A DNA stretch of 64,000 nucleotides from a bacterium (GTDB lineage Bacteria > SZUA-182 > DTGQ01 > JAFGSM01), in assembly GCA_049472355.1 (NCBI GenBank), contig JBLIRP010000004.1:1-64000 (forward strand), written 5' to 3'. Below are positions 31,800-58,548 of this stretch, one piece after another (the first letter of the stretch is position 1; each line of letters begins with the position of its first letter). A model generated the notes under the pieces. That model was not told the origin of the DNA. It ran no database searches and worked only from the letters and a program-made list of their open reading frames with translations. Both the position numbers and the translations under genes were made by a program.

Positions 31800-33692
31800 A
31801 TGGACACACTCCTTTCCCGGATCGAGGGTCCCGAAGACCTCAAAGACATCCCCGTTGCGGATTTACCTTCGGTCGCCGAGGAGATACGGGACCTCATCAT
31901 CGCCACGGTGTCGAAACGGGGGGGACACCTCGCCTCCAGCCTAGGGGTGGTTGAACTGGCCATTGCCCTCCTCTACTGCTACGACACCCCGCAGGACAAG
32001 ATCATATGGGACGTGGGACACCAGTGCTATGCCCACAAGATCCTCACCGGCAGGAGGGATCGATTCTGCACCCTCAGGGACTACGCGGGCATCAGCGGAT
32101 TCCCCAAGTGCGAGGAGAGCCCCTATGACTGCTTCAACACCGGTCACAGCAGCACCTCCATCTCCGCAGGGCTGGGCATGGCGGTGGCCCGGGACCTCCA
32201 TGAACAAGACTACAAGATCGTCTGCGTCATCGGCGACGGCGCCATGACCGCCGGGATGGCATTCGAGGGCCTCAACCAGGCCGGTGCACTGAAGAAGGAC
32301 CTGTGCGTCATCCTGAACGACAACGCCATGTCCATATCGAAAAACGTGGGCGCCCTTGCCACCTATCTGAATCGCATCATCACCGGCCAGCTCTATAACC
32401 GCATCAAGGAGGACATGGAGACCGTACTCCGCTCCATCCCCCAGGTGGGTGCATCCATCTTCAAGTTCGCCGCCAAGATGGACGAGGCGGTCAAATCACT
32501 CTTCATCCCCGGCATCATGTTCGAGGAGCTGGGATTCAAATACGTGGGCCCCGTGGACGGGCACTCCCTGCCGAACCTCATCGACACCCTCAATGCGGTG
32601 AGGAAGCTGCGGCGTCCCATCCTGCTCCACGTGATCACCACCAAGGGGAAGGGATACAACCCGGCGGAGGAAAACGCCTCCTCCTTTCACAGCGCCCTTC
32701 CCTTCAGCATCGAATCGGGCAGATTCGAGCGGGGAGAGGGTTCGAGCATCACCTTTACCGAGGCATTCTCACAGGCCGTCTGCAGCCTGGCGGAACATGA
32801 CGAACGGATATGCGCCATCACCGCGGCAATGCCGGAGGGGACCGGCTTGGACCGTTTCGGGGAGCGGTTTCCACAGCGCTTCTTCGATGTGGGGATTGCG
32901 GAGCAGCATGCCCTGACCTTTGCCGCAGGCATGGCCACCCAGGGTATGAGACCGGTGGTGGCGATGTATTCCACCTTCCTGCAGCGGGGCTATGATCAGG
33001 TACTCCACGACATCTGTCTCCAGGGTCTTCCGGTATGCATCGCCCTGGACAGGGCAGGCATCGTGGGACGGGATGGTCCCACCCACAACGGCGTCTTCGA
33101 CCTCTCCTACCTGCGCCACCTGCCCAATATGATCCTCATGGCGCCGAAGGACGGGGATGAACTGGCGAGGATGCTCGCCACCGCCCTCGCGAGCAATCAG
33201 CCGGTCGCAATCCGGTACCCAAAGGAACGCACCAATGCTGATACGCTCCATGGGACCTTTGAGCCGCTTCCCATAGGCAAAGGAGAGGTCCTCAAGGAGG
33301 GGAAGGACTGCCTGCTGGTGGCCATCGGCTCCATGGCTTCCATGGCGCTCAAGGCGGCGGAAATCCTGGAGAGTGAAGGAATAGAGGCAACGGTGGTGAA
33401 CGCACGGTTCGTAAAGCCGCTGGACAGGGAGATCATCTGCGCCCTTGCTCAAAAGACGGGAAACGTCATCACCATAGAGGAAAACGTCCTGGCGGGGGGA
33501 TTCGGGAGCGCCGTCATGGAGATGCTCAATGAGGAGGGACTGGCCCAGGCTGTTCGGGTCTTTTGTATGGGTATTCCGGACACCTTTTCCCCGGCGGGCT
33601 CCCAGGAGAAGATACGCGGCCTGTACGGCCTCACCCCGAAGGGCATCGCCAAGTTCTGCCGCGGCGTGATCGCTCAAACCAAACTTTGTTAG
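31800..33692 (+). CDS. dxs: 1-deoxy-D-xylulose-5-phosphate synthase
   Basis: 630 aa with the TPP-binding motif GDGAMTAGMAFEGLNQAG and a transketolase-like C-terminal domain. It lies immediately downstream of ispA, a common arrangement. Confidence 0.95.
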   Translation: MDTLLSRIEGPEDLKDIPVADLPSVAEEIRDLIIATVSKRGGHLASSLGVVELAIALLYCYDTPQDKIIWDVGHQCYAHKILTGRRDRFCTLRDYAGISGFPKCEESPYDCFNTGHSSTSISAGLGMAVARDLHEQDYKIVCVIGDGAMTAGMAFEGLNQAGALKKDLCVILNDNAMSISKNVGALATYLNRIITGQLYNRIKEDMETVLRSIPQVGASIFKFAAKMDEAVKSLFIPGIMFEELGFKYVGPVDGHSLPNLIDTLNAVRKLRRPILLHVITTKGKGYNPAEENASSFHSALPFSIESGRFERGEGSSITFTEAFSQAVCSLAEHDERICAITAAMPEGTGLDRFGERFPQRFFDVGIAEQHALTFAAGMATQGMRPVVAMYSTFLQRGYDQVLHDICLQGLPVCIALDRAGIVGRDGPTHNGVFDLSYLRHLPNMILMAPKDGDELARMLATALASNQPVAIRYPKERTNADTLHGTFEPLPIGKGEVLKEGKDCLLVAIGSMASMALKAAEILESEGIEATVVNARFVKPLDREIICALAQKTGNVITIEENVLAGGFGSAVMEMLNEEGLAQAVRVFCMGIPDTFSPAGSQEKIRGLYGLTPKGIAKFCRGVIAQTKLC

Positions 33693-34076
33693 GGCGCAGC
33701 GTAAGCGAAGGCTCAAACCAAGCTTGCCAGGGCGGAGCGCAGCGGAGCCACTATGCTCCCCTTCCAATCCACCAAAAGGCCTTGCGACAACACCTTTAAA
33801 AAGCTTGCCAGGGCGGAGCGCAGCGGAGCCACTATGCTCCCCTTTCCATTCTCCCAAAAGGCCCGCAACTCCGCCTTTAAAAAGCTCCTCAGGCCTGGCG
33901 CAGCAAAGCTAATCGATCTCTTCCTATCACACAAAGGCAGCGTCTGGAATATCTACCTTTCCTTTGGGATCACAATCGCAATCACATCAGGCAGGCTGGC
34001 GAATATCTGCCCTGTCAACAGCGGGATTCGTAGAGCCATTGATAAATAATATGTAATTGATTATATTTGTAATATA
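33674..34076. repeat. Composite repeat element, copy 1. Partial unit overlaps the dxs stop, then two tandem ~82-bp units, a spacer, and a ~170-bp conserved module ending in a sigma70-like promoter.
   Basis: Units: aagcttgccagggcggagcgcagcggagccactatgctccccttccaatccaccaaaaggccttgcgacaacacctttaaaa, present twice. The module 33930-34076 is about 85-90% identical to 41090-41246. Confidence 0.85.
34040..34068 (+). promoter_or_regulatory. Near-consensus sigma70 promoter TTGATA-17nt-TATATT at the 3' end of the repeat module. It faces the hypothetical ORF and giant-protein gene.
   Basis: The -35 TTGATA is at 34040-34045 and the -10 TATATT at 34063-34068, with exactly 17-nt spacing. The identical promoter is found at 41207-41235. 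Confidence 0.5.
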
Positions 34077-34126
34077 CCTGAGATTGCTTCGGCTCTCGCC
34101 GTGCGCTTTGCTCGGGGCTTCTGCTA

Positions 34127-34236
34127 CACCGCCATGATCTTCTGATCACAACGAAGCATGAACGTTTTTAGAAACAAGTGATTATTTGAAAACCTTCACA
34201 TAAACCGCCATGATCTAGCGATCACAACGAAGGATG
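34127..34236. repeat. Two 34-bp direct repeats (ACCGCCATGATCTnnnGATCACAACGAAGnATGA) separated by 76 bp
   Basis: Copies are at 34127-34160 and 34203-34236. Each contains an internal TGATC...GATCA inverted repeat. Confidence 0.7.
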
Positions 34237-34359
34237 AAAATAAATAAAACAAAGGGCTGTTAAATTATTTTCTTATAAACGCAATGGCATCTTGGGGACC
34301 CCGTATCGAGTCGTCAAGGGCACCATTATAGAAAAAAATTACTGAATCGGAAAAGATAA

Positions 34360-34767
34360 ATGCCCTGGAGCAGGCGAAACGATTGCGAAATCCCTCTTTC
34401 TCGGACAGTTGCCGAAACCGAGGTTGAATGTTACGAAAAAGATGGATTACAGGAGAGGATAGATCTTTTAGGATATAGACACCGGAATCTCATTACGATT
34501 TTTGATGGTAAGATGTCGAATGTCATTGATTTCACAAACATAGTTGATCCGACCTGTTTTGATAGGCGTGACCCTGGTGGAACTGCATCACGTGCTTATT
34601 TACTGCGAAGTCAAAAAAACTGTTTATCCTCTTCCGGGGATTCCATTTTTTGCAGGGTGTTTGGGCGCTTATACCGTGGCGACCGAGGAATCTCTTCAGA
34701 AGAGACAATTTTTTCAATGACTCTCCATAGATCTGCCAGTAACAATTTTATTCCTTCCTTGCTTTAG
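34360..34767 (+). CDS. Hypothetical protein (135 aa)
   Basis: ORF between the promoter module and the giant gene. No recognisable domain and lower GC than neighbours. Confidence 0.25.
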   Translation: MPWSRRNDCEIPLSRTVAETEVECYEKDGLQERIDLLGYRHRNLITIFDGKMSNVIDFTNIVDPTCFDRRDPGGTASRAYLLRSQKNCLSSSGDSIFCRVFGRLYRGDRGISSEETIFSMTLHRSASNNFIPSLL

Positions 34768-34802
34768 CTTTTCCTTGTTTTAACAAAGTTAAGGGGGCAT
34801 AT

Positions 34803-37800
34803 ATGGCTTCAAAAAACCGTCATAAAAAAATCAGTTTCATAACCTTGGCAGGCTCGATTCTTCTTCTGTTTTTCTGGGTAAATACTTCCCGGGCGCAAAC
34901 GGCTGCCGAATACATTGCACAGGGGAGGGCGCATCTCTCACAGCATACGATGGAAGGTCTCATGAATGCCCATTCGAAATTTCAGGCAGCACTGGTGATT
35001 GAACCCAATAATCCAGAGGCCAATTTTTTCTTTTCGCTCACTCGCCTGCCTGCACTTTTGGATAATTCCGCATCATATACCGATGGTTTTCCCATTGAAA
35101 ATGCCAAGGAACTCTTGGATGGTCTTGATGTGGATGCGGAAGGGAGGGACCTCTTTGAATGGGAAGCCAAATTCACTGAAGACGGCAGCGGGGATGTCCT
35201 TTTGCCTTCTGATTCCCCCACAGGTGATGTAGTTCAGGATTTTTTAACATCTGTCATCATGTCCGAGATTGAAGGGGTACTTACCGATCTCACCAATTTG
35301 GATGCGACATTTACTACCGTGTTGACCGCTTCGGAGACCGGAGAGGAACAAGATATTGAGATCGATTATGGGGATATCCTTTTGTACCGATCCCTACTGA
35401 ATGTCGCCAAGATGGGGCTCTCTTTCATATCCGCCTACGACATGGATGTGGATATCGATACCTTAGTGAATATGAACAGCGAGCTTTTTGATGTGGACGA
35501 GGATCTTCTCGATGTTTATCCGAACCTGTTGACACTGCTCTTGGATGGCGACGATCTCATGGCTGATGCAGGGAATGCCCTGCTCTCGGCCATTGATGCC
35601 TTTGATGAGGCCTCTTTGTTCATTCAGGAGACAGAAACGGACAACCAGGAGGACGATCTTGTCACCCCTGATGAAATAGCCGGAGGTGGTGATTTCAAAT
35701 GCAAACCAATAGTGGAACAGATCAAAGGCTCCCTGGTGAACAAGGAGCCTGCAGACCTTTCGCGCATTGAGGAAACCTGGGAATTGACGGATGATCATGG
35801 AAATACCATCCTTATGAGAATAGAAAAAGACCATGCCGGCAATTTCCTGGGCGGGGACTTTCACGGCATCGATGGTTGCAGTTTTCTGGCCTGCCGCGGA
35901 TGGGTTGAAGACTTCTCAATGGTGGACTCAAATATAGTCATCACCACTGCATGCGGGGGCGGGTGTCCTTGCTCAGCCATACTCGAAGGTCGGATGAACG
36001 AAGATGGGACGCGAATCATTTCAGGGACGTATCTGTCGCAGGATTGTCTCGAAACTGTATCCGGGACCTTTACCGGACTAAGGACCGAATATGAAGAGAC
36101 TCCTATGAGGATTGATGTGAGCGAGTTCTTTGACGACCCCATCAGCATCCGGGATTATCTGCCTGGGCTTACCCATGATCCATACACACGTGAGATCATG
36201 CTGGCAAAAAGTCTTATGGAGTCTTTCCCGGACCGGACCCTGTCGGGCATCTTTCCTGACGGATTGCCGGTCGAAGGATTCGGGCTCGATCTGGTCACGA
36301 TCCGAGGGGGAAGCGCATCCGGGGGGTCTTCTTACGGCGTTGCTTCATGCCTTGTGTGGGGCCTTGCCCCCTGGGATATCGAGTCCCTCACCATTTATGG
36401 TCCTCTGGGTTTGCAGTATGAATTTGATCTGGAAAAGGACACCATGGTGTTTTACAAATACGGGATGATGTATAACGTTAGTGCTCCTTCCTATCCGCCT
36501 GAAGGGTGGTATGAATTTGTTTTGATCGACAAACAGGGTCGAAGCGTATCTGCAGGCAGATATTTCACCCCCAATCCCATCGATGTGGTGGATATAGCAA
36601 CAGGCGAATCTCCCGCAGACAAGGCCTATGTAAACACCCTGACGCCTGCCTTGAACTGGTCGCCTGTGACGGATGAACGGATTGATACGCTATATTACAG
36701 GGTGAATATCATGGACTGGAATGGGAAGGTCAATGTCTATTCATCCGACAGGGTTGCAGGCACGACAATAACGGTGCCGGCGGGTATCCTGATGCCCAAC
36801 GAGGTCTATCAATGGAATGTTCGGGTATTTGACAGCGCGAACGGCACCAGTGCGAATAATTTTTCTTCCAGTGATTGGAAGGTCTTTTGCACAGGCGGTG
36901 AAAACGATCCGCTGAATATCGAATTGGCCTTTGTTCATAGCAGGGTGGAGCCAGATGATATGCATGACATGACCCTTTTTGCCATCGATATAGACGGGCC
37001 TGCACCCTATGATATCGGCTCCCTGGCAGTGTCAGGCCCGGGAGGATTCTCGCATACCTTCGACCCCATCGATGATTACCATTCCGATATCTACCTGCAC
37101 CACGAAGACGGTATCCTTACGGACGGGACCTATACCTTTACTATTGTGGATGATCGAGACGGCAACACACTGTCTGTTGACCGGGATTTTACTTTCAATC
37201 GCCTGCCCGTCCCTGAAGAGCTGCATACCCCATCCTTTGAGTCATATGTCCGGACGACCACGCCAACCTTCAGCTGGAGCAGGGCACATGACGAGACGGT
37301 GGATCCCCTCTCCTATCGGGTGATGATCTATGATTATAATCATAACATTATTTACAAATCTCCTCGCTCCCCGGAGACATCCGCAACGGTTCCCCCGGAT
37401 TGCTTGAAAATCCATAACCCCTATTTCTGGCGCGTTCAGGTGTTTGATGGGACCTCCACGATTCAAAACAGCGCGGTTACGAATATGATGCCCTTTTATG
37501 TTGTAGCGGACAATCCACCTTCGATCATTTCAGGACAGATTGAGACAGGGATGAGCGGTTATACGGGCGGCGATATCTTCGTCTGCGTGTTCGATCAGGC
37601 CCTGCAACCTCTTGCATCTCCCCTCTTCTGTGTCACCCTTTCCGATATAGGTTCGTATACCCTGTATGACCCGCCTACCAATACGGATCTTTATATCTAT
37701 GCCCTCTGGGACAAGGACGGGAGTGATTGTTACACAGCCGGTGACTGGGCGGGGATATACGCTGAAAATCCGGTTGTGCTCGACGACGGCGGTATTTTTA

Positions 37801-40784
37801 CGAATGCCGATATCGCCTTAAATAACGAGATCCCATCGGCATCGGTGACCGGGCATGTCAGTTGTGATGATTTTGAGCCGGGTCTCGGTGACATCTCTAT
37901 TTTTGCATTTGACGGGGAAGATCCCTCAGATGCGCATCTGCTTGATTCCACGTCCATTGGGAGCCCATCCGAGGCATACACCCTGTCCAATCTTCCGGTC
38001 GATGTCTATGCCTACCTGTTTGCCCGTTGGGATAGGGATGGTAGCGGGACGAAGACACCACCGGACTGTCTGGGAAAATATTCAGAGAATCCGCTCCTTA
38101 TAGAAAGTGGGGGCCTTACGGGCATCGATATTGCGCTTATTCCAACGCTCATTGACCCATTTTCCGTAGATATTCACTGGATCTATTACAATGACAATTC
38201 CGGCAGAACGATTGATTATGATTATTTCGATGCGGATGACATCAATGAAGATGGAGATATCACCTTCCCCCCGGAGGCTCTCATATCCGTTCCTGATGAG
38301 GAATCAAATGCCATCTTCACCTGGGAATCCGTAATGGGAAATCAGGAAACATATATTTCCGGCGGGGTATATCAGGTGGCAGTACCCCAGGCCCAGGACG
38401 CGGTCAAGGCAATTCCCACTGCAGATATCAGCATATATAGTCCAATCGAGGAATGGGATGGGATCCCGTTATATATCGAGGATGCATTGCTCGATAATCC
38501 ATCGTGGATCCCCGAAGGTGCGGATGCGGATATGCACTATCTGAAATTGGCTTATAGCCCTGATCTTTCTAAACTCAATATCCTCATGAAATTGGAGGGT
38601 GAGGCGAATCCGAACGTCTGGTATCGTCTCTTCCTGGATAAGGATTTGGATGGAAGGACGGATGAACCGGGAGACTATCACATAGATTTTCAAAATCAAG
38701 CCGGTATTTGGGAGGTCGTAAGCCAGGGTTGGAATTCTGAAAATGGCTGGGACCGGTATCCGGTTGAGGAAAATGGCATGGTTGTCATATCCGGCGAATT
38801 CATACAAGCGACCGTAAACACCGCATCTTTCGGGCTTCCGGGTGAAGTCAATATCTACGGCCGTACAATGCAAAATGACTATCCTTACAGCAATTATGAC
38901 ACCTTTTCCACTAATTATTTAGAGGCGAACGGCCTATCCGTGATAGGCGGGCATAACATTACGGCATCATCTCCGACGGAATGGGAGTTTGCCCTGGGCA
39001 CTACGAACTTCCGAAATGTGTCGAAGGATCAGCATTATTACGATGTGTGTGTCGGGATCGGGGGTTCACGTTTTGCGAGAGGAAATGTAGAGGCCGATAT
39101 TGATGCGGCATGGTTTACCGGCACATACCAGGGCGTTTTTTATGAAGATGCCCTGATATTCACGGCACATGTTTACAATCAACTGGGTGGGGACGATCAC
39201 TATGCATGGGATTGGGACCTCGAAACCGGAGAGGGGCTCATCCTGACCGGGCTCGATCCGACAAGCACGACGTTGGACTTCAAGGTGACAACCACGGATG
39301 ATGGTCGGACCTTTTCCGGCTATTATCGCATAAACAGCAATGATGAATCGGACTGGCAGTTATTGGTCACGCATACCTTGCCCCCGGATACCGGAGTAAT
39401 ATGTGGCTTTCCTGAATGCTCCCCTTCGGTACATTTCGAGACGGGGATAATCCCGCTCGAATATCTTTGTGATGGTGATATCAATCACGATGATGAAATA
39501 ACCCCCATCGATGCCCTATGTGCCTTCCAAACCTATTTGGAGATATGTCCGACAAGATGCGGGCCATGTGAGGGCATATGCTGCGATGTGAATATGGATG
39601 ACGACTGCACGCCGGCCGATGCGCTGTGTATTTTCCGGAAATATCTCGGAATCCCCTGTTGTCTGGATAAAGAAAATCTCAACATAGGTAAGGCCTTTGC
39701 TCTTCTGAATACGGGGGAGCAAGGCACAACTCGGCTTATTGTGCTTGCGGATATCAGAGACGATACAGGGGCACAGGTGCCTTTTGCCGATGTATGGGTG
39801 GTTGATCCTCAAGGGAATACGATACAGCTAAGACGAAATAACGGGCACGGTCTTTATGAAGGAAGTCCTGCCGGTTCCGAGATCTTGCTCGGAGATTATA
39901 CGTTTTATGCCGAATACGCGATTCATGAAGCAGCGCCGGTAGTGAAAAATGTAAGTAGTTTAGAGATCCTTGAGCCTCCGGTGTTGTTAAATTTTCAGCT
40001 TCCTGAGGAAGGACAGCCCTGGGCTGTTTCCTGGGAGCAGGTTCCGGGAGCGCAAGGTTATCTTGTCATGCTCAGGTATGACAATAATGACGACCAACCG
40101 CTCTTTACAAATGTTGCTGATATTTTTTCAAGTACGTTGCCGACCGCTCATTCGGTGGAGATCCCTGCAGGATTGGTGCATCCTCATGCGGATTATGAGC
40201 TGGAAGTGATTGCGGCCAACGGCACGACTCTTGAAGGTACGACCGCGATTTCTTCGCTGCAAGAGGAATTCAGTACCAGGCCGCCATTTTCTGTTCCCTA
40301 TAAGACGATAGCTATTGATGGAAATTACAACGACTGGTCGGATCCAAACGACCTTGTGTATTGGGACACGGACGGCCCGGATTGTGCTGGGGGGCAGGAT
40401 ATCCAAAAGGTATATCTTGCGCAGGACGATACCTTCCTGTATGTGCGTTATGTGCTTGGCGGCCCGTTGGACCAGTCATTTGGATATAAGTTTGGTGACG
40501 GCCGGTTGCACACCTACGTTTCAAATACCAATGGTCAGAAGCGTTTATTCTGGGCCTGGGATCATACAGAGTATGACATAGATGATTTGGGTTATCCCTT
40601 GAGCAGCCAAGAGCAACCTGCTGATTTCGTTTCAATAGACGGGAATCAATTTGAAATAAAGTTCCTTAAATCAGACGCTCGGATTTGGCAAGGGAGGGAC
40701 ATTGATGCCTGGAGCGACCAAGGTCATGAAACTGTCTGCACGGACATGTGCCGGTTGCCGGAGATATTGGATTTGGATTTCTGA
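34803..40784 (+). CDS. Giant secreted repetitive protein (1993 aa). It has an N-terminal signal peptide and TPR-like region, multiple FN3/Ig-like beta modules, and a Cys-rich dockerin-type double calcium-binding repeat near residue 1560.
   Basis: Signal peptide MASKNRHKKISFITLAGSILLLFFWVNTSRAQT. Repeated modules include YVNTLTPALNWSPVTDERIDTLYYRVNIMDWNGKV...YQWNVRVFD and TPTFSWSRAHDETVDPLSYRVMIYDY...YFWRVQVFD. The dockerin-like segments are CDGDINHDDEITPIDALCAFQTYLE and CDVNMDDDCTPADALCIFRKYLG. Confidence 0.85.
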   Translation: MASKNRHKKISFITLAGSILLLFFWVNTSRAQTAAEYIAQGRAHLSQHTMEGLMNAHSKFQAALVIEPNNPEANFFFSLTRLPALLDNSASYTDGFPIENAKELLDGLDVDAEGRDLFEWEAKFTEDGSGDVLLPSDSPTGDVVQDFLTSVIMSEIEGVLTDLTNLDATFTTVLTASETGEEQDIEIDYGDILLYRSLLNVAKMGLSFISAYDMDVDIDTLVNMNSELFDVDEDLLDVYPNLLTLLLDGDDLMADAGNALLSAIDAFDEASLFIQETETDNQEDDLVTPDEIAGGGDFKCKPIVEQIKGSLVNKEPADLSRIEETWELTDDHGNTILMRIEKDHAGNFLGGDFHGIDGCSFLACRGWVEDFSMVDSNIVITTACGGGCPCSAILEGRMNEDGTRIISGTYLSQDCLETVSGTFTGLRTEYEETPMRIDVSEFFDDPISIRDYLPGLTHDPYTREIMLAKSLMESFPDRTLSGIFPDGLPVEGFGLDLVTIRGGSASGGSSYGVASCLVWGLAPWDIESLTIYGPLGLQYEFDLEKDTMVFYKYGMMYNVSAPSYPPEGWYEFVLIDKQGRSVSAGRYFTPNPIDVVDIATGESPADKAYVNTLTPALNWSPVTDERIDTLYYRVNIMDWNGKVNVYSSDRVAGTTITVPAGILMPNEVYQWNVRVFDSANGTSANNFSSSDWKVFCTGGENDPLNIELAFVHSRVEPDDMHDMTLFAIDIDGPAPYDIGSLAVSGPGGFSHTFDPIDDYHSDIYLHHEDGILTDGTYTFTIVDDRDGNTLSVDRDFTFNRLPVPEELHTPSFESYVRTTTPTFSWSRAHDETVDPLSYRVMIYDYNHNIIYKSPRSPETSATVPPDCLKIHNPYFWRVQVFDGTSTIQNSAVTNMMPFYVVADNPPSIISGQIETGMSGYTGGDIFVCVFDQALQPLASPLFCVTLSDIGSYTLYDPPTNTDLYIYALWDKDGSDCYTAGDWAGIYAENPVVLDDGGIFTNADIALNNEIPSASVTGHVSCDDFEPGLGDISIFAFDGEDPSDAHLLDSTSIGSPSEAYTLSNLPVDVYAYLFARWDRDGSGTKTPPDCLGKYSENPLLIESGGLTGIDIALIPTLIDPFSVDIHWIYYNDNSGRTIDYDYFDADDINEDGDITFPPEALISVPDEESNAIFTWESVMGNQETYISGGVYQVAVPQAQDAVKAIPTADISIYSPIEEWDGIPLYIEDALLDNPSWIPEGADADMHYLKLAYSPDLSKLNILMKLEGEANPNVWYRLFLDKDLDGRTDEPGDYHIDFQNQAGIWEVVSQGWNSENGWDRYPVEENGMVVISGEFIQATVNTASFGLPGEVNIYGRTMQNDYPYSNYDTFSTNYLEANGLSVIGGHNITASSPTEWEFALGTTNFRNVSKDQHYYDVCVGIGGSRFARGNVEADIDAAWFTGTYQGVFYEDALIFTAHVYNQLGGDDHYAWDWDLETGEGLILTGLDPTSTTLDFKVTTTDDGRTFSGYYRINSNDESDWQLLVTHTLPPDTGVICGFPECSPSVHFETGIIPLEYLCDGDINHDDEITPIDALCAFQTYLEICPTRCGPCEGICCDVNMDDDCTPADALCIFRKYLGIPCCLDKENLNIGKAFALLNTGEQGTTRLIVLADIRDDTGAQVPFADVWVVDPQGNTIQLRRNNGHGLYEGSPAGSEILLGDYTFYAEYAIHEAAPVVKNVSSLEILEPPVLLNFQLPEEGQPWAVSWEQVPGAQGYLVMLRYDNNDDQPLFTNVADIFSSTLPTAHSVEIPAGLVHPHADYELEVIAANGTTLEGTTAISSLQEEFSTRPPFSVPYKTIAIDGNYNDWSDPNDLVYWDTDGPDCAGGQDIQKVYLAQDDTFLYVRYVLGGPLDQSFGYKFGDGRLHTYVSNTNGQKRLFWAWDHTEYDIDDLGYPLSSQEQPADFVSIDGNQFEIKFLKSDARIWQGRDIDAWSDQGHETVCTDMCRLPEILDLDF

Positions 40785-40953
40785 TCTGATAAGAAATTTA
40801 ATTGTAGTCGGTGCCCAAATGGTGCCCATCGTTATGGAAAAATCGAAAACATGTAAAATCCCGAAAGGTTCATTAAGAGGGATTCTCGGCGAAAAATTAA
40901 TAAGTTCATGCCATTAAACAGATTATCCTCGACGAGTTAAGCGAACCAAAGCC

Positions 40954-41258
40954 TCAAACCAAACTTTGTTAGGGCGGAGCGTAAGCGGAGCCTCTATGCT
41001 CCCCTTCCAATCCACCAAAAGACCCTGCGATTACGCGTTTTAAAAAACTCTGTTAGGCCGAAGCGTAAGCGAAGCCACCAGACCTCTTCCTGACACACAA
41101 GGGCAGCGTTTGGCAGTACCTTCCTTCCCTTTGGGACCGACAATCGCAACCAAAACAGGCAGGCTGGTGAATGTCCGCTCTGTCAACAGCGGGATTCACT
41201 CAGCCATTGATAAATAATATGTAATTGATTATATTTGTAATATATATGCATAGGGTTT
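40954..41258. repeat. Composite repeat element, copy 2. It begins with a 24-nt duplicate of the dxs 3' end (ctcaaaccaaactttgttagggcg), then a degenerate unit and the conserved ~170-bp promoter module.
   Basis: 40954-40977 is identical to 33674-33697. 41090-41246 is about 85-90% identical to 33930-34076, including the TTGATA-17-TATATT promoter at 41207-41235. Confidence 0.85.
41207..41235 (+). promoter_or_regulatory. Second copy of the TTGATA-17nt-TATATT promoter, about 90 nt upstream of the 619-aa secreted protein gene
   Basis: Identical -35/-10/spacer to the copy at 34040-34068. Confidence 0.5.
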
Positions 41259-41323
41259 TCTCATGATTCTCCAAATTTGATGGGCCTCACTACATGATTT
41301 CGACAAGGTCATAATTGTGACAG

Positions 41324-43183
41324 GTGGACGCAATGATGCAAAGGGCAAGATGTCTATGCATCCTGACGGTCTTTATCGTGCTGCTTACCTTGATGACAGG
41401 TATGGCCGGGGCGAAGACGGGGACCGAGCACCCATTCCTTTTGGACGTTCCCGCCTCCTATAACCTGCCGTTGTGGATGTATTCCTGGAATCCCTCTTTG
41501 GCCTGGAAGGGCATGGCCGGGGCGAAGATAGAGATCCAATATCCAGTCCCTTTGGACATTCCCGGCTCTTATACATCATCGATAGGGATGCCTTTATGGA
41601 ATACACCCTTAGGCCGGATCGGGAATGGCCCTGCCGATCACCTCAGTCATGCCTATTATGCATGGTTGTATCCATCAACCCTCAATTATATTCCCCTGTG
41701 GTCCCATCCATGGTTCTATTCCTCTTCCCCATCCCAAAAAGCGGCAAAACCGTTCCACCCTGTTTTTGAGAACCTGAGTCTTTTCAAAATGGGCCCTCTC
41801 TATGCCCAAATCGATGAGCCCTACCGATATCTGTTCATCGCTGATTATACATATCATACATCCGAGAGCATAGAGTTGTACTTTATGGATGGTGATCAGC
41901 TCTCATGTACCAGTATTTTTGATCTCTTGCTTCATCCCGTAGAATTCCTCCTCTTTGTCAACGACCCCAATGATCCGAATGATCCGGTGGCGAAATACTG
42001 GATGGATCTCGGGGCGGACCCGGCCCTGTTTGGTGAAAACGATCCGCATATGGCTGCCCTTTTCGGCAGGGCATCGTTCAAGGTCGATCTCGACCTGCCC
42101 ATCTTTGCTGACCCGAATCTAAGGTTCGGTGGTCATTTGGCGGAGAGGATCATCGAACAGGGCCATATGGGGTGGAAGGTAACCGTGAATGGAGCTGTTC
42201 AGGGGCAGCCCCTGCAGATCAATCCGCTCCCGGTGGACCCCTATGATGGTATGCCCACCTATCTGCCGGCAAACTATACCGCGGTCAAGACGATAGATGC
42301 CTATGCCAAGCCATTCTATCGTATGGACGTTGTGTTCGTTCTGGAGGGCGCGCTGTGGAACTCCGGTGTGTCGGTCTGGCCGAATGTGGCTGCACTGGAT
42401 TACACGCCGCAGGATTTTGAAGACCTGATGGTGACCATCGAGGTGACCAACGGAATAGATTCGGAGGTCAGCATCTTTCCCATCACCGTACTTGATTACC
42501 CTGTGGAAAATTATGATCCTGTGCCGGCATCCGATGAGGTCGAACTGACAGTATATGTGGGAGAATCGTTTCGTTATGCTCTTTGGTGCATCGACCCGGA
42601 TTGTTTCATCTTCTCACAGGCTTACAATCTGTATGGAGAGGTCCCTGACACCACGCATGTGCCTTGGAATGCCCCGGGCATGGCATTCAGGACTGACATG
42701 TCCTCCCTGGAATGGGACATTCCGGGGGACTACTCCATCAGCAACTTCAATCCATCCTCGGGGCTCATCTCATGGGTCCCGGTGCGTGAAGGGATTCATA
42801 CTATGGTCGTGACCTGTTCGGACAACCATGGCGGTACCGCCGACATCGAATTGAAAATCTCCACTGAATGCCGCGGAGGCCCCTGCAATAATCCGCCCAT
42901 CATCACAGGCGCTCCCACACAAATCCTGACAATCATTGCCGGACAGGAGTTCGTCCTGGGTCCACCCGATTTCTCAGTGGAAGATCCGGATTACGATGAG
43001 ATCTACGCATCCTGCAATGTCGGTTCCTGCGAGAGGGATGGGGATGGCAACTTTGTGTGGAAATTTCAGAGCGACTTCCCAGGCTCTTATATGGTTGAGA
43101 TCATCTTCCACGATATCAGAGGGGGACATGCAATAATGGAATTCTTTGTGGACGTGCAACCATGGTGGGTGAATCCTTCATGA
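41324..43183 (+). CDS. Secreted hypothetical protein (619 aa) with an N-terminal signal peptide. The likely start is ATG 41333.
   Basis: MMQRARCLCILTVFIVLLTLMTGMAGA signal. There is an internal duplication (MAGAKTGTEHPFLLDVPASYNLPLWMYSWNPSLAW / MAGAKIEIQYPVPLDIPGSYTSSIGMPLWNTPLG). C-terminal beta-rich Ig-like regions. No catalytic motif recognised. Confidence 0.6.
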   Translation: MDAMMQRARCLCILTVFIVLLTLMTGMAGAKTGTEHPFLLDVPASYNLPLWMYSWNPSLAWKGMAGAKIEIQYPVPLDIPGSYTSSIGMPLWNTPLGRIGNGPADHLSHAYYAWLYPSTLNYIPLWSHPWFYSSSPSQKAAKPFHPVFENLSLFKMGPLYAQIDEPYRYLFIADYTYHTSESIELYFMDGDQLSCTSIFDLLLHPVEFLLFVNDPNDPNDPVAKYWMDLGADPALFGENDPHMAALFGRASFKVDLDLPIFADPNLRFGGHLAERIIEQGHMGWKVTVNGAVQGQPLQINPLPVDPYDGMPTYLPANYTAVKTIDAYAKPFYRMDVVFVLEGALWNSGVSVWPNVAALDYTPQDFEDLMVTIEVTNGIDSEVSIFPITVLDYPVENYDPVPASDEVELTVYVGESFRYALWCIDPDCFIFSQAYNLYGEVPDTTHVPWNAPGMAFRTDMSSLEWDIPGDYSISNFNPSSGLISWVPVREGIHTMVVTCSDNHGGTADIELKISTECRGGPCNNPPIITGAPTQILTIIAGQEFVLGPPDFSVEDPDYDEIYASCNVGSCERDGDGNFVWKFQSDFPGSYMVEIIFHDIRGGHAIMEFFVDVQPWWVNPS

Positions 43184-43439
43184 TACCCTTGCGGGAGAAT
43201 TCAGGCGCGCGGTCACGGAGATGCTCAATGAGGAAGCGCTCGCCCAGGCCACATCCAGGTCTTCCATATGGATATCCCGGACAACTCTTGCCCGGCGGGC
43301 TCACAGGAGAAGATCCGGGGCATCTGTAGTCTCAGCCCAAAGGGCATCACCCCCGGTTCTGCTGACGCGTGATTATTTTATCCTGACGCCCCCTCGAATC
43401 AAAAATTGAAATCCTGTCATTGCGGAGGAAGCAACCCGG

Positions 43440-43650
43440 AGCAACCAAGCTTGCCAGGGCGAAGCGCAGCGGAGCCACTATGCTCCCCTTCCAAACTACC
43501 AAAAGGCCTTGCGACAACACGTTTAAAAAGCTTGCCAGGGCGAAGCGCAGCGGAGCCACTATGCTCCCCTTCCAAACTACCAAAAGGCCTTGCGACAACA
43601 CCCTTAAAAAGCTTTGTTAGGGCAAGGTGCGGCGAAGCCTCTACGCCGAC
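43440..43650. repeat. Composite repeat element, copy 3 (two complete ~82-bp tandem units plus a partial unit, without the promoter module)
   Basis: The unit aagcttgccagggcgaagcgcagcggagccactatgctccccttccaaactaccaaaaggccttgcgacaacacgtttaaaa is present twice (43449-43530, 43531-43612). It lies downstream of the 619-aa gene. Confidence 0.85.
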
Positions 43651-43769
43651 TTCTCCAGCAACCTATACATTATTATATACGTTCTCAGGTACAGATTCCT
43701 TAATGAATCCATACCGATGAAGATGAACTGCCTCTCAATCAATAATCCCTCACAGCGCCTTCACCGGCA

Positions 43770-44435
43770 TCAGAACCGGTACACGATCCCCAGTGCATAC
43801 CCGACTTCCTGGACCATGTTGACCTCCATCCGCAGGTGCATGTTCTCCAGGATCGGTGCATACACCCCGGCTGCGATCAGCATTGAGGTCTGGTCGTGAT
43901 CCTGCCCGGGTGCCTCCAACTCGGAATAGAGGATGCCGAAGTTCAGGTAGGGCACACTGCGCACATACCGCCACTCCAGCCCGCCCGTGGCGATGATCCG
44001 CCGATGGGTGACATCCTCATCTTTATTCTCTCTTTCGTGCTTTGCCGTGCTGTACGAGAAGGAGATGGTGAAGTCCGCGGGCACCCCCATGGGAATGGCG
44101 CGCACTGCGTACGCCTTCCCCCCTATCCGGAAGGCAAGGGCGGGATCGAGGTCGTATGTCGTTCCGGCCAGCCGGACATCCATGTCCTGCCAGCTCAACC
44201 CGACGAAGATATCAAAGGTCTGGGGAAGGGAATAGCCGATCCTGGCGCCTCCCTGGGATACATCCAGCTCCTGGCCGTCCTTGGACTGCTCCTCGTAAAA
44301 CTCCCACTCCAGCCTCATGTCGAATCCCGGGGGGTACCCCTGGGCGTACATCCTCGGTGCAGAGACGAGGAGCAGGCACAGTGAGACTCCCACAGAGATC
44401 AAAAGCATACGGTACTTGTGGTGCATTCTGGGCAT
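43770..44435 (-). CDS. Outer-membrane beta-barrel protein (small OMP, 221 aa)
   Basis: Signal peptide, alternating amphipathic beta strands and a C-terminal aromatic terminus ...GIVYRF, the typical BAM recognition signal. Confidence 0.6.
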   Translation of the reverse strand: MPRMHHKYRMLLISVGVSLCLLLVSAPRMYAQGYPPGFDMRLEWEFYEEQSKDGQELDVSQGGARIGYSLPQTFDIFVGLSWQDMDVRLAGTTYDLDPALAFRIGGKAYAVRAIPMGVPADFTISFSYSTAKHERENKDEDVTHRRIIATGGLEWRYVRSVPYLNFGILYSELEAPGQDHDQTSMLIAAGVYAPILENMHLRMEVNMVQEVGYALGIVYRF

Positions 44436-48058: not shown

Positions 48059-49744
48059 GTGGACCTCGATGACAAAAGGGAATTGATCAAGGATTTTGTC
48101 GATGAATCCTGTGAGTTCATTGACGGGTTTGAAGGCCTGCTCCTTGAGCTGGAGCAGGGGGTGGGAGGGACCCCGGACGCAAATCTGCTGAGCGAGATCC
48201 TGCGGCAGCTTCACACCTTTAAGGGCAATTCCGGGATGATGGGGTATTCCCACCTCCAAACCTACGCCCACCGGATGGAGGACCTCTTCAAGGCGCTCCA
48301 GGCTGGTGATGCAGAGTGCGATGCAGAGCTCGTCGAATTTGTCATGCAGTGCACGACCATCATCCGCACCGCTATTGATCAAATCTCTAAAGACACCAGC
48401 GTCGAGCCCTCCCTTGCCAAAGAAATTGAGGCACTGGAGGCATTTCTTGACCAAAGGCGGGAGAGGGAATCCGAAAATACGGTGATTCATCACGTCGCCT
48501 CGGCCAAGGAGCACTTCAATCCCTTTGCGCAGAAGACCAATCTGCTCAAGGTCGATTTCGAGCGTATGGATCACCTGCTGAACCTGATGGGAGAGATGGT
48601 CATTCAACGAACCCGCCTCGGGCAGATTGATGTCCAGTTCAAGGAGGCATTCGGGGAACGGGGAGTGGTGATGGACCTTTCCAACACCGCGGAGCAGATG
48701 GGCAAGGTCACCACCGAGCTTCATGAGGCCATCATGAAGGTGCGGATGCTCCCCATTAAGCAGGTGTTCATGCGGTTTCCCCGATACGTAAGGGACTTTT
48801 CCCGTGAAAGGGGAAAGGAGATCAACCTCCGGTTCGAGGGTGAGGAAACGGAGCTCGACAAGACCGTGATCGATGAGATCGGGGAGCCCCTCATGCACCT
48901 GATCCGCAACGCCATCGACCATGGTATCGAAAAACCCGAGGAGCGAAAGGCATTGGGGAAGCCTCCGGCAGGGTTGATCAAGCTCAAGGCATACCAGGAA
49001 TCAAGCCACATCATCATCACCGTCGAGGATGACGGCAAGGGCATTGATGAGGAAAAGCTGCGCACAAAGGCCGCACAATCCGGACTCCTTAAAAAGAATG
49101 AGACATCCTCACAGGATCTCATGAACCTGATCTTCATCTCCGGTTTCTCAACCGCAGAGCGCGTTACCGAGGTCTCAGGCCGCGGTGTGGGGATGGATGC
49201 AGTCAAAAAGAGCCTGGCAAAAATCAACGGTTCCATCGAGGTCGAAAGCATTATCAACATGGGGACCCGTTTCACCATCAAGCTTCCCCTTACATTGGCC
49301 ATTATCACTGCACTCATGGTTGACGTCTCCGGCGAGCAATACGCCATTCCCCTCACCTCGGTGGTGGAGAGCATTCGCATCGGGGATGAAGAGATCCATC
49401 TCGTCAACAACCGGGAGGTGACCCGGGTCCGGGACCGCATCCTTCCCCTTGTCCGGGTGTCCGACCTGTTCGGGCTTGCTCGGGCCGCACACAAAAAGGG
49501 GAACTATGTGGTGATCGTTCAGAGCGGCATCCGTGAAATGGGTATCGTCGTGGATGCCCTCCTCGGGCAACAGGAGATCGTGATCAAGGCCCTGGACGAC
49601 TATATCAGTGGCTCGGCAGGGATTGCAGGGGCCACCATCCTGGGAGACGGAAAGGTGGTCCTCATCCTGGATGTCCTCGAGATGATCAATGAAGTCAGGG
49701 AATTCCATGAACAGGAAAAGCCATTGGAGGTACAGAATGCTTAA
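48059..49744 (+). CDS. cheA: Chemotaxis histidine kinase CheA (Hpt-dimerisation-HATPase-CheW-like domains). GTG start.
   Basis: Hpt phosphorylation site LHTFKGNSGMMG. HATPase G1/G2 boxes HLIRNAIDHGIE and GRGVGMDAV. C-terminal CheW-like regulatory domain. Confidence 0.9.
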   Translation: MDLDDKRELIKDFVDESCEFIDGFEGLLLELEQGVGGTPDANLLSEILRQLHTFKGNSGMMGYSHLQTYAHRMEDLFKALQAGDAECDAELVEFVMQCTTIIRTAIDQISKDTSVEPSLAKEIEALEAFLDQRRERESENTVIHHVASAKEHFNPFAQKTNLLKVDFERMDHLLNLMGEMVIQRTRLGQIDVQFKEAFGERGVVMDLSNTAEQMGKVTTELHEAIMKVRMLPIKQVFMRFPRYVRDFSRERGKEINLRFEGEETELDKTVIDEIGEPLMHLIRNAIDHGIEKPEERKALGKPPAGLIKLKAYQESSHIIITVEDDGKGIDEEKLRTKAAQSGLLKKNETSSQDLMNLIFISGFSTAERVTEVSGRGVGMDAVKKSLAKINGSIEVESIINMGTRFTIKLPLTLAIITALMVDVSGEQYAIPLTSVVESIRIGDEEIHLVNNREVTRVRDRILPLVRVSDLFGLARAAHKKGNYVVIVQSGIREMGIVVDALLGQQEIVIKALDDYISGSAGIAGATILGDGKVVLILDVLEMINEVREFHEQEKPLEVQNA

Positions 49745-50111
49745 AAAGGTATTGATTGTGGAGGATTCGGCCCTCCAGGCCAAGATGTACCGGATGGTGT
49801 TCAGCTCATACCAGGGATGTGAGCTTCTCTTTGCCGAAAACGGCATCGAGGCCATGAACCAGCTTGCCCTGCAAGGGGATATCGATCTGATCATCTCGGA
49901 TATCAATATGCCCAAGATGGATGGCATCACCTTTCTGCAGGCCATGAGCAGGGAAGGCTACAGTCACATTCCGGTCATCGTCATCAGCACCGAGGACAAG
50001 GACGATGACATCCGGAGGGCCATCGATCTGGGGGCGAAGGCATATGTGAAAAAACCCTGGAAACAGGACGACGTGCGGGCAATCGTCAACCGGATAAAGA
50101 ACTGGAACTGA
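49737..50111 (+). CDS. cheY: CheY-like single-domain response regulator
   Basis: MLKKVLIVEDSALQ...DLIISDINMPKMDG...VIVISTEDK...AYVKKP: the receiver-domain acidic pocket, phospho-Asp and conserved Lys. Confidence 0.85.
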   Translation: MLKKVLIVEDSALQAKMYRMVFSSYQGCELLFAENGIEAMNQLALQGDIDLIISDINMPKMDGITFLQAMSREGYSHIPVIVISTEDKDDDIRRAIDLGAKAYVKKPWKQDDVRAIVNRIKNWN

Positions 50112-50124
50112 CAAGGAGGAAGCA

Positions 50125-50862
50125 ATGGGAGAAAAGGGAAGAAAAAAACGGGAGGCACACTCACAACCCCCACCCCTGCCCTCATGCGGGCTTGCAGAGG
50201 ATATCCTGAGGCCGGATCTCTCCTCTGAGACCAAGGCGTCCGAGGGGCCCGGCACAGGAAGAAACAGAGCACAAAAAAAGGGGGAGAAGGAGGCCATGGA
50301 GCAACCCCCACCCCTGCCCTCATGCGGCCTTGCCGAGGATATCCTGAAGCCGGACTTTTTTGCCGAAATGAAGACTGCGGAGAAGCAGGAGCAGAGAAAA
50401 TCAGGAAACAACAGCACCATCAGGAGGGAAGGATTGACAAAATTCGTCACCTTCTTCCTTGACGCAGAGGAATATGCCCTTCCCGTCTCACAGGTCAGGG
50501 AGATCAAGCGGGTGGGAGAGATCACCCGGGTTCCCAATGCACCTCAGCACATCAGGGGCGTGATGAACCTTCGGGGGCGGATCGTCCCGGTGCTCGAGCT
50601 CAAGAAACGCCTTCAACTCGGGGAGGCGGCCATCGACATGGACAGCAGGATCGTGGTGGTGGAGCAGGGAAACAGGGTGCTCGGGCTTATGGTGGATCGG
50701 GTCTCCCAGGTCATGAACATCGCAGCCGAGCAGATCGACAATGCCCCGGAGGAGGTGGTGCAGGTGAATGAAAACTACCTCAAAGGGGTGGGAAAACTTG
50801 ACGAGCGGATGATTATCCTGCTGGACCTCGAACAGATAACGGGGAAGGAGGTGGAGTCATAA
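50125..50862 (+). CDS. cheW: CheW-like coupling protein with an N-terminal low-complexity extension containing a tandem duplication (QPPPLPSCGLAEDIL[RK]PD x2). The alternative start is ATG 50297.
   Basis: The C-terminal ~150 aa form a CheW domain (TKFVTFFLDAEEYALPVSQVREI...VPVLELKKRL...VLGLMVDRVSQV). DNA 50163-50217 and 50301-50355 are about 90% identical direct repeats, each preceded by SD plus ATG. Confidence 0.75.
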   Translation: MGEKGRKKREAHSQPPPLPSCGLAEDILRPDLSSETKASEGPGTGRNRAQKKGEKEAMEQPPPLPSCGLAEDILKPDFFAEMKTAEKQEQRKSGNNSTIRREGLTKFVTFFLDAEEYALPVSQVREIKRVGEITRVPNAPQHIRGVMNLRGRIVPVLELKKRLQLGEAAIDMDSRIVVVEQGNRVLGLMVDRVSQVMNIAAEQIDNAPEEVVQVNENYLKGVGKLDERMIILLDLEQITGKEVES

Positions 50863-51122
50863 TTAAGGAATCAGGGGGCAAGTCTCTATGCCTTATGCCT
50901 TTTCGTATTGCTATCTACGATCATAATTAAATTTTTCCCCTATTTGTAAGAGCGAGGGAGGGACTGCACAAAGTGAATGTAATTGTTTGGTTTACCTTCC
51001 AATGTTGAGAAGACATACGGAGGTGTAAATCCGGGATCGGCTTTTCCCATTTCTTACCCAGGAACAAGCCGAAATGGTCAAGAATCGAGGTTGCCGACAC
51101 TGAGAAACAAACAGAGAGCACA

Positions 51123-53537: not shown

Positions 53538-53559
53538 CAGGCGATCGTGAAGAAGTGTG

Positions 53560-53780
53560 ACGGGGGGGTTGATTCGGATGCACCTGGCAACCGGTTGTGA
53601 CGGGGATTCGATTCGAATTACCTATTAATCCGGTTGTGACAAGAAGTGTGAATCGGATGTACCTGATCGCAAGGTTATGACAGGGTGAAATTGTGACAGG
53701 GGTTTGATTCGAACATACCTGTTCGCAGCGTAGCGACGGAGATTGCGATTCGAACATACCTGTTATTGTTTAAAGTTGTG
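53560..53780. repeat. Intergenic array of five ~40-48-bp direct repeats (GATTCGRAYRTACCTG...GTGACRGGG) between the MCP and cheW genes
   Basis: Copies start at about 53568, 53606, 53650, 53702 and 53745. Read directly. Confidence 0.75.
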
Positions 53781-53793
53781 GGAGGGACACGCA

Positions 53794-54309: not shown

Positions 54310-54394
54310 TCACGGCCGGAATAGCAACTGCACATGTCGTTGTTTGCACCGGCATGCCATTCCACCCGAATGAGGAGACAACGGGGACCCGTAC

Positions 54395-58544: not shown

Positions 58545-58548
58545 GGAT

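What the first reader, a model, noticed from the sequence alone, without database searches (positions are those of the whole stretch)
34040..41324. Duplicated promoter module predicts co-regulation of the giant dockerin protein and the 619-aa secreted protein
The conserved module ends in TTGATA-17nt-TATATT, at 34040-34068 and again at 41207-41235. It faces, respectively, a hypothetical ORF plus the 1993-aa dockerin-bearing protein, and the 619-aa secreted protein. The upstream ~140 bp of the module is also conserved, which suggests a shared operator. Two secreted proteins under the same regulatory cassette, one of them carrying a dockerin, suggest a partner pair (dockerin ligand or cohesin-like anchor, or a two-component surface structure).
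Basis: inference. Interest (0 to 1): 0.55.

Follow-up and report, generated by a model that had tools for sequence, protein, structure and literature searches.

The report
Duplicated promoter inside a dxs-linked island
Two neighbouring secreted-protein genes in an uncultured bacterium carry the same 43-base promoter-like sequence because a roughly 300-400-base stretch was duplicated when a foreign giant gene entered a genomic island; shared control is plausible, but nothing indicates the two proteins bind each other.

Summary
TTGATA-17-TATATT occurs at 34039-34067 and 41207-41235, inside a 43-nt block that is 100% identical in both copies. About 250 nt upstream of it is shared at only about 76-82%.

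The core is the native promoter-like element of the 619-aa gene family. It is also found, with both hexamers invariant, upstream of 619-type genes in two other assemblies at a different locus.

The copy in front of the 1993-aa gene is one arm of a roughly 300-400-bp direct repeat. This repeat flanks a 6.9-kb, low-GC segment that I found only in this genome; it holds a decayed gene relic and the giant gene. The whole region 33693-43770 is a roughly 10-kb island. Two relatives have dxs directly next to the OMP gene, and a frameshifted dxs 3' copy marks the island's right end.

Co-regulation is plausible but untested. The "shared operator" in the upstream 140 bp could not be tested across genomes; it is absent from the other assemblies' copies and is explained by the duplication.

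The partner-pair idea is not supported. The 619-aa model shows cadherin/Ig-like domains and no cohesin match. The dockerin match is below threshold. The giant gene has no full-length homologue anywhere in the database.

This is ordinary island biology.

The parts
31800..33692 (+). dxs (1-deoxy-D-xylulose-5-phosphate synthase), the island's left anchor. Its last codons run into the repeat unit.
   Evidence: Pfam DXP_synthase_N, Transket_pyr and Transketolase_C. 88.6% nt identity to L014 7250-9125.
33673..34076 (+). Left arm of the direct repeat (copy 1): repeat units, about 150 nt of unique upstream DNA, and the 43-nt core.
   Evidence: blastn and pairwise alignment against 40953-41244. The first 24 nt (33673-33696) are 100% identical to 40953-40976.
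33720..33886 (+). 81-nt tandem repeat, 2.1 copies.
   Evidence: TRF. A single unit is present in the empty-site relative, L014 9197-9257.
34034..34076 (+). Promoter-like core, copy 1: -35 TTGATA at 34039-34044, -10 TATATT at 34062-34067. Predicted transcription start near 34073-34077, which is also where the homology ends.
34077..40952 (+). 6.9-kb segment found only in this genome, lying between the two repeat arms. GC 41-52%, against about 60% in the flanks.
   Evidence: Composition. No counterpart in related loci.
34360..34767 (+). Decayed relic of an uncharacterised family of ~178-aa proteins. It lacks the first ~23 and last ~40 residues, and a stop codon lies directly upstream in frame.
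   Evidence: 58 homologues at E<=1e-3; alignment A5; upstream frames. No Pfam, NCBIfam or PDB match.
34803..40784 (+). 1993-aa secreted mosaic protein (ACMUIL_01280): signal-like N-terminus, Ig_Rha78A_N domains, and a Cys-rich dockerin-like pair at about residues 1558-1610.
   Evidence: A ribosome-binding site, AAGGGGG, lies just upstream of the ATG.
40953..41244 (+). Right arm of the direct repeat (copy 2).
41202..41244 (+). Promoter-like core, copy 2: -35 at 41207-41212, -10 at 41230-41235. This is the native copy, because the leader after it is homologous to the leaders of 619-type genes elsewhere.
41245..41332 (+). Roughly 90-nt 5' leader of the 619-type gene, conserved in L011 and L003. 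An AGGTGG ribosome-binding site lies before ATG 41333.
   Evidence: No significant structure.
41333..43183 (+). 616-aa secreted protein (619 aa if started at GTG 41324; ACMUIL_01285), a member of a large lineage-specific paralogous family. The C-terminal part folds as cadherin/Ig-like domains.
43187..43371 (+). Displaced, frameshifted copy of the dxs 3' end, marking the right end of the island.
   Evidence: 74% identical to 33488-33675, with indels and a frame change. Colinear with L014 8938-9257.
43447..43614 (+). 81-nt tandem repeat, 2.1 copies, with no promoter core attached.
43770..44435 (-). OMP beta-barrel gene, the island's right anchor. In relatives it lies directly next to dxs.
   Evidence: Pfam. 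Synteny in L014 and L016.

Best explanation
The 43-nt AT-rich core is a sigma-70-type promoter that belongs to the 619-aa gene family. It may overlap a regulator site, because more than the two hexamers is invariant. In the window it occurs twice because it lies at the 3' edge of a roughly 300-400-bp direct repeat (33673-34076 and 40953-41244). That repeat brackets a 6.9-kb low-GC segment (34077-40952) that I found only in this genome, carrying a decayed gene relic and the 1993-aa mosaic surface protein. The whole arrangement sits in a roughly 10-kb composite island inserted at the 3' end of dxs. This appears to be a recurrent insertion site in this lineage, and each insertion left a duplicated piece of the dxs end. 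As a result the giant gene has a copy of the 619-type promoter about 726 nt upstream of its start codon, and the 619-type gene keeps its own promoter and its ~90-nt leader. Shown: the duplication, the island, the empty sites, and conservation of the core across genomes. Inferred: that the core fires, that transcription from copy 1 reaches the giant gene, and that both genes therefore respond to the same signals. Sharing a promoter reflects how the DNA was assembled. It is not evidence of a physical partnership between the proteins.
For: Core identity and hexamers. The 43-nt perfect run stands against 76% identity upstream, P about 5e-4. The core is present in the same orientation upstream of 619-type genes in the ACMUIM MAG (L003, same contig as L002) and in a JGI contig (L011), both downstream of an S8 peptidase gene. 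There the upstream DNA is unrelated but the leader is homologous to the leader of window copy 2. Both hexamers are invariant in all four copies; variation is limited to 4 spacer positions and 2 positions after the -10. Other subfamilies of the same protein family carry their own conserved TTGCNT-17-TATAAT upstream regions, so promoter and gene appear to be conserved together in this family. Island: dxs is directly followed by OMP/LpoB/DUF1425/TPR in L014 and L016. GC is 41-52% and GC3 0.53-0.61, against about 60% and 0.7-0.8 in the flanks. A frameshifted dxs 3' copy lies at 43187-43371. A second, different insertion at the dxs stop region in L001 is flanked by a ~45-bp direct repeat. The giant gene has no full-length homologue.
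Against: There are no transcription data. The leader in front of the giant gene is 726 nt long. It contains a gene relic and one weak terminator-like hairpin at 34626-34651, so transcripts from copy 1 may not reach the gene. The organism belongs to an unclassified lineage whose promoter consensus has not been studied. Only three independent lineages support conservation of the core. The rest of the source genome could not be retrieved, so the total number of core copies is unknown. The mechanism that produced the direct repeats was not determined.
Confidence: 0.6

Rival explanations
1. One reading: the shared cassette marks a functional pair, in which the dockerin of the giant protein binds a cohesin-like module of the 619-aa protein, or the two build one surface structure.
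For: Both proteins have signal-like N-termini (helix 2-27). They share an identical core promoter. There is a dockerin-like duplicated motif with a near full-length but sub-threshold Dockerin_1 match. One relative of the giant protein has a precomputed PF00404 hit. The 619-aa protein has beta-sandwich domains.
Confidence: 0.07
2. Copy 1 is a relic promoter. It came along with the duplicated arm and does not drive the giant gene, which is expressed from an unrecognised promoter closer to its start. In that case co-regulation does not follow.
For: 726-nt distance, a decayed ORF in between, and a terminator-like hairpin at 34626-34651. A second, weaker promoter-like site lies at 34186-34214.
Against: The core of copy 1 is perfectly preserved, while the DNA just upstream of it is only ~76% identical to copy 2. 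That argues for continuing selection. No promoter-like site was found between 34215 and 34802 on the + strand.
Confidence: 0.17
3. The core is primarily a recombination site, either an att-like crossover point or the end of a mobile element. Its perfect identity and the sharp end of homology would then reflect the insertion mechanism and not promoter function.
For: Homology stops exactly at 34076/41244. The core is AT-rich, with internal direct repeats ATTGAT[A/T]A[A/T]AT 18 nt apart. The locus is an insertion hot spot with duplicated target sequences.
Against: No recombinase or transposase gene lies between dxs and the OMP gene. In L003 and L011 the core sits at a different locus, in the same orientation upstream of 619-type genes and followed by a homologous leader (about 90 nt to the start codon in L011, as in window copy 2), not at an island edge. 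The variation pattern spares both hexamers. nhmmer finds no further copies in 19 loci or the window.
Confidence: 0.1

Closest known systems
Sigma-70-type bacterial promoter with conserved flanks (possible overlapping operator)
   Same: -35 TTGATA (5 of 6) and -10 TATATT (5 of 6) with a 17-nt spacer, correct orientation, about 90 nt upstream of the native gene. The hexamers are invariant across genomes while part of the spacer varies.
   Different: No transcription start has been mapped. The organism is an unclassified uncultured lineage. About 30 of 43 positions outside the hexamers are also invariant, which is more than a bare promoter needs.
Genomic islands or prophage-like elements that insert into the 3' end of a protein-coding gene and carry a replacement 3' end (for example e14 and phage 21 in E. 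coli icd; from my own knowledge)
   Same: The target gene (dxs) is intact, and a displaced, decaying copy of its 3' end lies at the far side of the insert. Close relatives have an empty site. Composition is atypical. A different insertion is found at the same site in a sister genome.
   Different: No integrase or other mobility gene lies inside the island. The duplicated segments are long (190-400 bp) and diverged (74-82%), with no short identical att core. The cargo is surface proteins. The structure is nested, with one insertion inside another.
Cellulosome-type cohesin-dockerin pairs
   Same: A duplicated Ca-binding-loop motif resembling a type I dockerin in a secreted multidomain protein, next to another secreted protein.
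   Different: The dockerin match is below Pfam's threshold. No cohesin module was detected by sequence or by fold. The two genes do not co-occur in other genomes, and no scaffoldin-like repeats are present.

Membership tests
Sigma-70-type promoter | -35 and -10 hexamers close to TTGACA/TATAAT with a 16-18-nt spacer, oriented towards a downstream gene | tested here: met
   10 of 12 matches with a 17-nt spacer at both copies, on the + strand upstream of + strand genes.
Sigma-70-type promoter | Conservation of the hexamers in upstream regions of homologous (619-type) genes in other genomes | tested here: met
   Invariant in window copies 1 and 2, L003 and L011; variation only in the spacer and after the -10.
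Sigma-70-type promoter | Mapped transcription start 5-9 nt downstream of the -10 | not testable with these tools
   No RNA data. Predicted starts are near 34073-34077 and 41241-41245.
Cohesin-dockerin pair | Dockerin module (two Ca-binding repeats) above the family threshold | tested here: inconclusive
   Dockerin_1 scores 19.3 bits against a cut-off of 22.9, E=0.0013, covering profile positions 2-52 of 57. No PDB sequence hit. The single-sequence model has pLDDT 43.6 and is unusable.
Cohesin-dockerin pair | Cohesin module in the proposed partner | tested here: not met
   No Cohesin Pfam hit at E<=1. The model (pLDDT 80.5) matches cadherin/Ig-like folds, with no cohesin among the top 50 or 60 hits.
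Cohesin-dockerin pair | Co-occurrence of the two partners across genomes | tested here: not met
   619-type genes are present in MAGs ACMUIS, ACMUIM, ACMUHX and ACMUIU, while the giant gene has no full-length homologue. L017 has no 619-type gene within its 9-kb contig.
Genomic island at a gene 3' end | Empty site in close relatives | tested here: met
   L014 and L016 have dxs followed after ~210 and ~130 bp by OMP(-), LpoB, DUF1425 and TPR.
Genomic island at a gene 3' end | Atypical composition and flanking direct repeats that include a duplicated target 3' end | tested here: met
   GC 41-52% against ~60%. GC3 0.53-0.61 against 0.7-0.8. dxs 3' copy at 43187-43371.
Genomic island at a gene 3' end | Integrase or recombinase encoded in the element | tested here: not met
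   Only three ORFs with protein-level support lie between dxs and the OMP gene (relic, giant protein, 619-type), and none has a recombinase domain.

The most novel reading that the evidence does not exclude
The dxs 3' end in this uncultured lineage could be a dedicated capture-and-expression site. Incoming surface-protein genes would be recombined in behind a portable, strongly conserved promoter/operator cassette (the 43-nt core plus its upstream arm). Newly acquired adhesin-like proteins would then immediately fall under the same regulator as the resident 619-type family. A weaker variant is that the Cys-rich dockerin-like module of the giant protein binds the cadherin-like domains of 619-type proteins, which would be a non-cohesin dockerin receptor.
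Probability: 0.08. Interest if true: 0.55.

Novelty: new member of a known kind. Interest (0 to 1): 0.25.

Why it matters
If the core fires as predicted, the locus is a tidy natural example of a horizontally acquired giant surface-protein gene sitting behind a copy of a resident gene family's promoter. It also gives a 43-nt handle for finding the regulator and regulon of a large, wholly uncharacterised family of cadherin-like secreted proteins in an uncultured lineage. Its wider significance is modest. Promoter duplication by segmental duplication and insertion hot spots at gene 3' ends are both well known, and the more exciting reading (a new dockerin receptor pair) has no support.

Tried and rejected
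1. My first collection scan used a pattern with one N too many and found nothing. After correction, the only true hits were L003 and L011. The other nine loci score at most 16 bits with the core profile and are chance AT-rich matches.
2. I tried to fetch paralogues from the source genome (ACMUIL) to count core copies. That genome is not in the gene-position collection.
3. RNA-element ideas for the leaders and the 81-nt repeat were rejected. Rfam gives nothing at the gathering threshold or at E<=1. Folding z-scores are unremarkable (-0.35, +0.45, +0.05, +1.06) apart from one repeat unit at z=-2.4.
4. I considered an integron-like cassette array because of GTTAGGC/GTTAGGG motifs in the repeat units. 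I dropped it: there is no recombinase gene between dxs and the OMP gene, each cassette would carry its own promoter, one would be 6.9 kb, and the breakpoints are not at the GTT motifs. I ran no formal attC search.
5. ORF135 as a random ORF was rejected. It has 58 homologues but is truncated at both ends. The family looks PIN-like from its LLLDANVVI start, but Pfam, NCBIfam and a PDB profile search gave no hit, so that remains an impression.
6. The single-sequence structure prediction of the dockerin-like segment had pLDDT 43.6 and was uninformative.
7. The afdb50 fold library was unavailable.
8. Literature searches for the MAG accessions found nothing.
Full report
OBSERVATION. Reading the sequence and running the consensus scan confirm TTGATA-17 nt-TATATT at 34039-34067 and 41207-41235. 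Each site matches 10 of 12 consensus positions, and they are the two best sigma-70-like sites between 33000 and 45000. They lie in a 43-nt block (34034-34076 = 41202-41244) that is identical in the two copies. A 30-nt pattern from this block, allowing up to 3 mismatches, occurs exactly twice in the window, against 0.00 expected from shuffles. Upstream, the two copies remain alignable for about 250 nt, but only at 76-82% identity and with several indels. Against that background a perfect 43-nt run has a probability of about 5e-4. The similarity ends abruptly at 34076/41244, a few bases after the -10 hexamer, which is about where a transcript would start.

WHAT SURROUNDS IT. The upstream similarity is not a free-standing module.
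- It begins at 33673 and 40953 with 24 identical bases.
- It includes units of an 81-nt tandem repeat, at 33720-33886 and again at 43447-43614.
- It is therefore one arm of a direct repeat, 33673-34076 and 40953-41244, that brackets 34077-40952.

A third partial copy lies at 43187-43694. It has a copy of the last ~190 nt of dxs and the 81-nt repeats, but no promoter core. That dxs copy is 74% identical to the real gene end and is frameshifted.

The genes, in order, are as follows:
- housekeeping genes ending in ispA and dxs (31800-33692);
- ORF135 (34360-34767);
- the 1993-aa protein (34803-40784);
- the 619-aa protein (41324/41333-43183);
- on the minus strand, an OMP beta-barrel gene, LpoB, DUF1425, a TPR protein and a nitroreductase, followed by a chemotaxis cluster.

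GC content is 41-52% across 34000-43200, against about 60% in the flanks. GC3 is 0.53 for the giant gene and 0.61 for the 619-aa gene, against 0.70-0.82 for the neighbours.

THE REGION IS AN ISLAND. I fetched the contexts of the closest dxs homologues. In L014 (dxs 88.6% nt identity) and in L016, dxs is followed after ~210 and ~130 bp by the same OMP/LpoB/DUF1425/TPR genes. Window 33693-43770 is therefore a roughly 10-kb insertion relative to these relatives. Its right end (43187-43500) is colinear with the dxs 3' end plus intergenic region of L014 (78.6%). So the original dxs end was displaced and is decaying, while the functional gene carries a replacement end.

A sister genome (the ACMUIS MAG, L001) has the 79%-identical orthologue of the 619-aa protein, followed by the same dxs remnant. 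It then has a further AT-rich 1.9-kb insert with a PEP-CTERM gene, flanked by a ~45-bp direct repeat of the dxs stop region. The dxs 3' end thus appears to be a recurrent insertion site in this lineage. No recombinase gene lies inside the window's island.

WHOSE PROMOTER IS IT? The 619-aa protein (ACMUIL_01285) belongs to a large family confined to a group of unclassified MAGs and metagenome contigs. The search returned 117 homologues, with several paralogues per genome. Exact-pattern scans of the genome and metagenome collections found the core in two other places: L003 (the same contig as L002, ACMUIM MAG) and L011 (a JGI contig).
- In both, the core lies downstream of an S8 peptidase gene and upstream of a 619-type gene, in the same orientation.
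- In L011 it lies about 90 nt before the start codon.
- In L003 a repeat element of about 190 nt has been inserted in the leader.
- In L003, and in L011 plus L019, two 619-type paralogues follow in tandem with no second core between them.

In the four-way alignment, both hexamers and most of the core are invariant. Variation is confined to a 4-nt block in the spacer and two positions after the -10. DNA upstream of the core is unrelated between the window and L003/L011. The leader downstream of the core is homologous among window copy 2, L003 and L011, but not window copy 1. Copy 2 is therefore the native promoter-leader-gene unit. Copy 1 is the same promoter cut off at about +1 and joined to unrelated DNA.

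More distant paralogues (L018) have a different conserved upstream region with its own TTGCNT-17-TATAAT. So the core is specific to the 619 subfamily, and promoter and gene appear to be conserved together in this family.

THE INSERTED SEGMENT. The giant protein (ACMUIL_01280) has no full-length homologue. Only its first ~1130 residues have relatives, in Desulfobacterales and unclassified bacteria. The last ~860 residues, including the dockerin-like motif, are unique.

ORF135 is not random. It has 58 homologues of about 178 aa. The window copy lacks the first ~23 and last ~40 residues, a stop codon lies directly upstream in frame, and conserved acidic positions are changed. It is a decayed relic of an uncharacterised family, with no Pfam, NCBIfam or PDB match.

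The distance from the predicted start to the giant gene's ATG is 726 nt. It includes one weak terminator-like hairpin at 34626-34651 and no better promoter-like site after 34215. No Rfam family or significant structure is present in either leader.

THE PARTNER-PAIR IDEA.
- Dockerin. Pfam Dockerin_1 matches residues ~1558-1610 nearly end to end, but below threshold: 19.3 bits against 22.9, E=0.0013 on a 110-aa fragment, and no hit at E<=0.01 on the whole protein. There is no PDB sequence match. A single-sequence model was too poor to use.
- Structure of the 619-aa protein. I modelled it with a 64-sequence alignment; mean pLDDT is 80.5. It shows a signal helix, a ~110-residue disordered region, an alpha/beta core (145-345) and then beta-sandwich domains.
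- Co-occurrence. The two genes do not co-occur elsewhere.

The pair hypothesis therefore has no positive support beyond adjacency.

MECHANISM AND CONFIDENCE. The best reading (confidence about 0.6) is that the core is a sigma-70-type promoter of the 619-type genes, possibly overlapping a regulator site. It was duplicated as the edge of a direct repeat when a foreign 6.9-kb segment entered an existing island at dxs. Both genes are then preceded by identical promoters, so similar control is likely.

Rivals:
- Copy 1 is a relic that does not reach the giant gene (0.17).
- The core is mainly a recombination site (0.10).
- The two proteins are a true dockerin-based pair (0.07).

How the long, diverged direct repeats arose was not resolved. 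One possibility is single-crossover integration of circular DNA from a diverged relative, which would explain both nested duplications.

VERDICT. The promoter and co-regulation inference is reasonable but untested. The operator and partner-pair inferences are unsupported. This is a new instance of familiar phenomena: promoter duplication, and a genomic island at a gene's 3' end. Interest is 0.25.

Noticed in passing
window 34360-34767: ORF135 is a truncated, decayed relic of an uncharacterised family of ~178-aa proteins. Members start MPxLKLLLLDANVVI, which looks PIN-like but is untested. The family has 58 homologues in metagenomes and no Pfam, NCBIfam or PDB match.
   Followed up: partly
window 33720-33886 and 43447-43614; L014 9197-9257: An 81-nt unit from the dxs-OMP intergenic region is present once in the empty-site relative. 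In the window it is amplified to 2.1 tandem copies at both ends of the island, with a further unit at 40953-41045. One unit folds better than shuffles (z=-2.4). Its function is unknown.
   Followed up: partly
window 43187-43371: A frameshifted pseudo-copy of the last ~190 nt of dxs starts 4 nt after the stop codon of the 619-aa gene. The same arrangement is conserved in the sister MAG (L001 1837-2032).
   Followed up: yes
L001 2007-2050 and 3953-3998: In the sister MAG, a 1.9-kb AT-rich insert carrying a PEP-CTERM protein gene is flanked by a ~45-bp direct repeat of the dxs stop-codon region. This suggests site-specific insertion at the dxs 3' end, although no integrase was seen.
   Followed up: partly
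L018 7700-8000 and 10900-11260: Two 777/780-aa paralogues of the 619-type family are inserted among the glycine-cleavage genes (gcvT, gcvH, gcvP). They share their own conserved upstream region with TTGCNT-17-TATAAT.
   Followed up: partly
L002 1200-1390 and 3290-3500; window 34080-34140: A short GC-rich element (...CGCTTCGCTCGGGGCTTTGGCTCACCG...) recurs in the leaders of 619-type genes, and by eye in the leader after window copy 1. It may be a dispersed intergenic repeat of this lineage.
   Followed up: no
window 34803-40784 (protein residues ~1130-1993): The C-terminal ~860 residues of the giant protein have no homologue among the database hits. The dockerin-like pair is unusually Cys-rich (CDGDINHDDEITPIDALC...CCDVNMDDDCTPADALC).
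   Followed up: partly
window 41400-41620: The N-terminal disordered region of the 619-aa protein contains an internal repeat (...GMAGAK...YP.PLD.P.SY...PLW...). The repeat is also seen in the orthologues.
   Followed up: no
window 48059-59613: A complete chemotaxis cluster (CheA, CheY, 2-3 CheW, MCP, CheR, a HEAT-repeat protein, CheB) lies downstream of the island and is syntenic in relatives.
   Followed up: no
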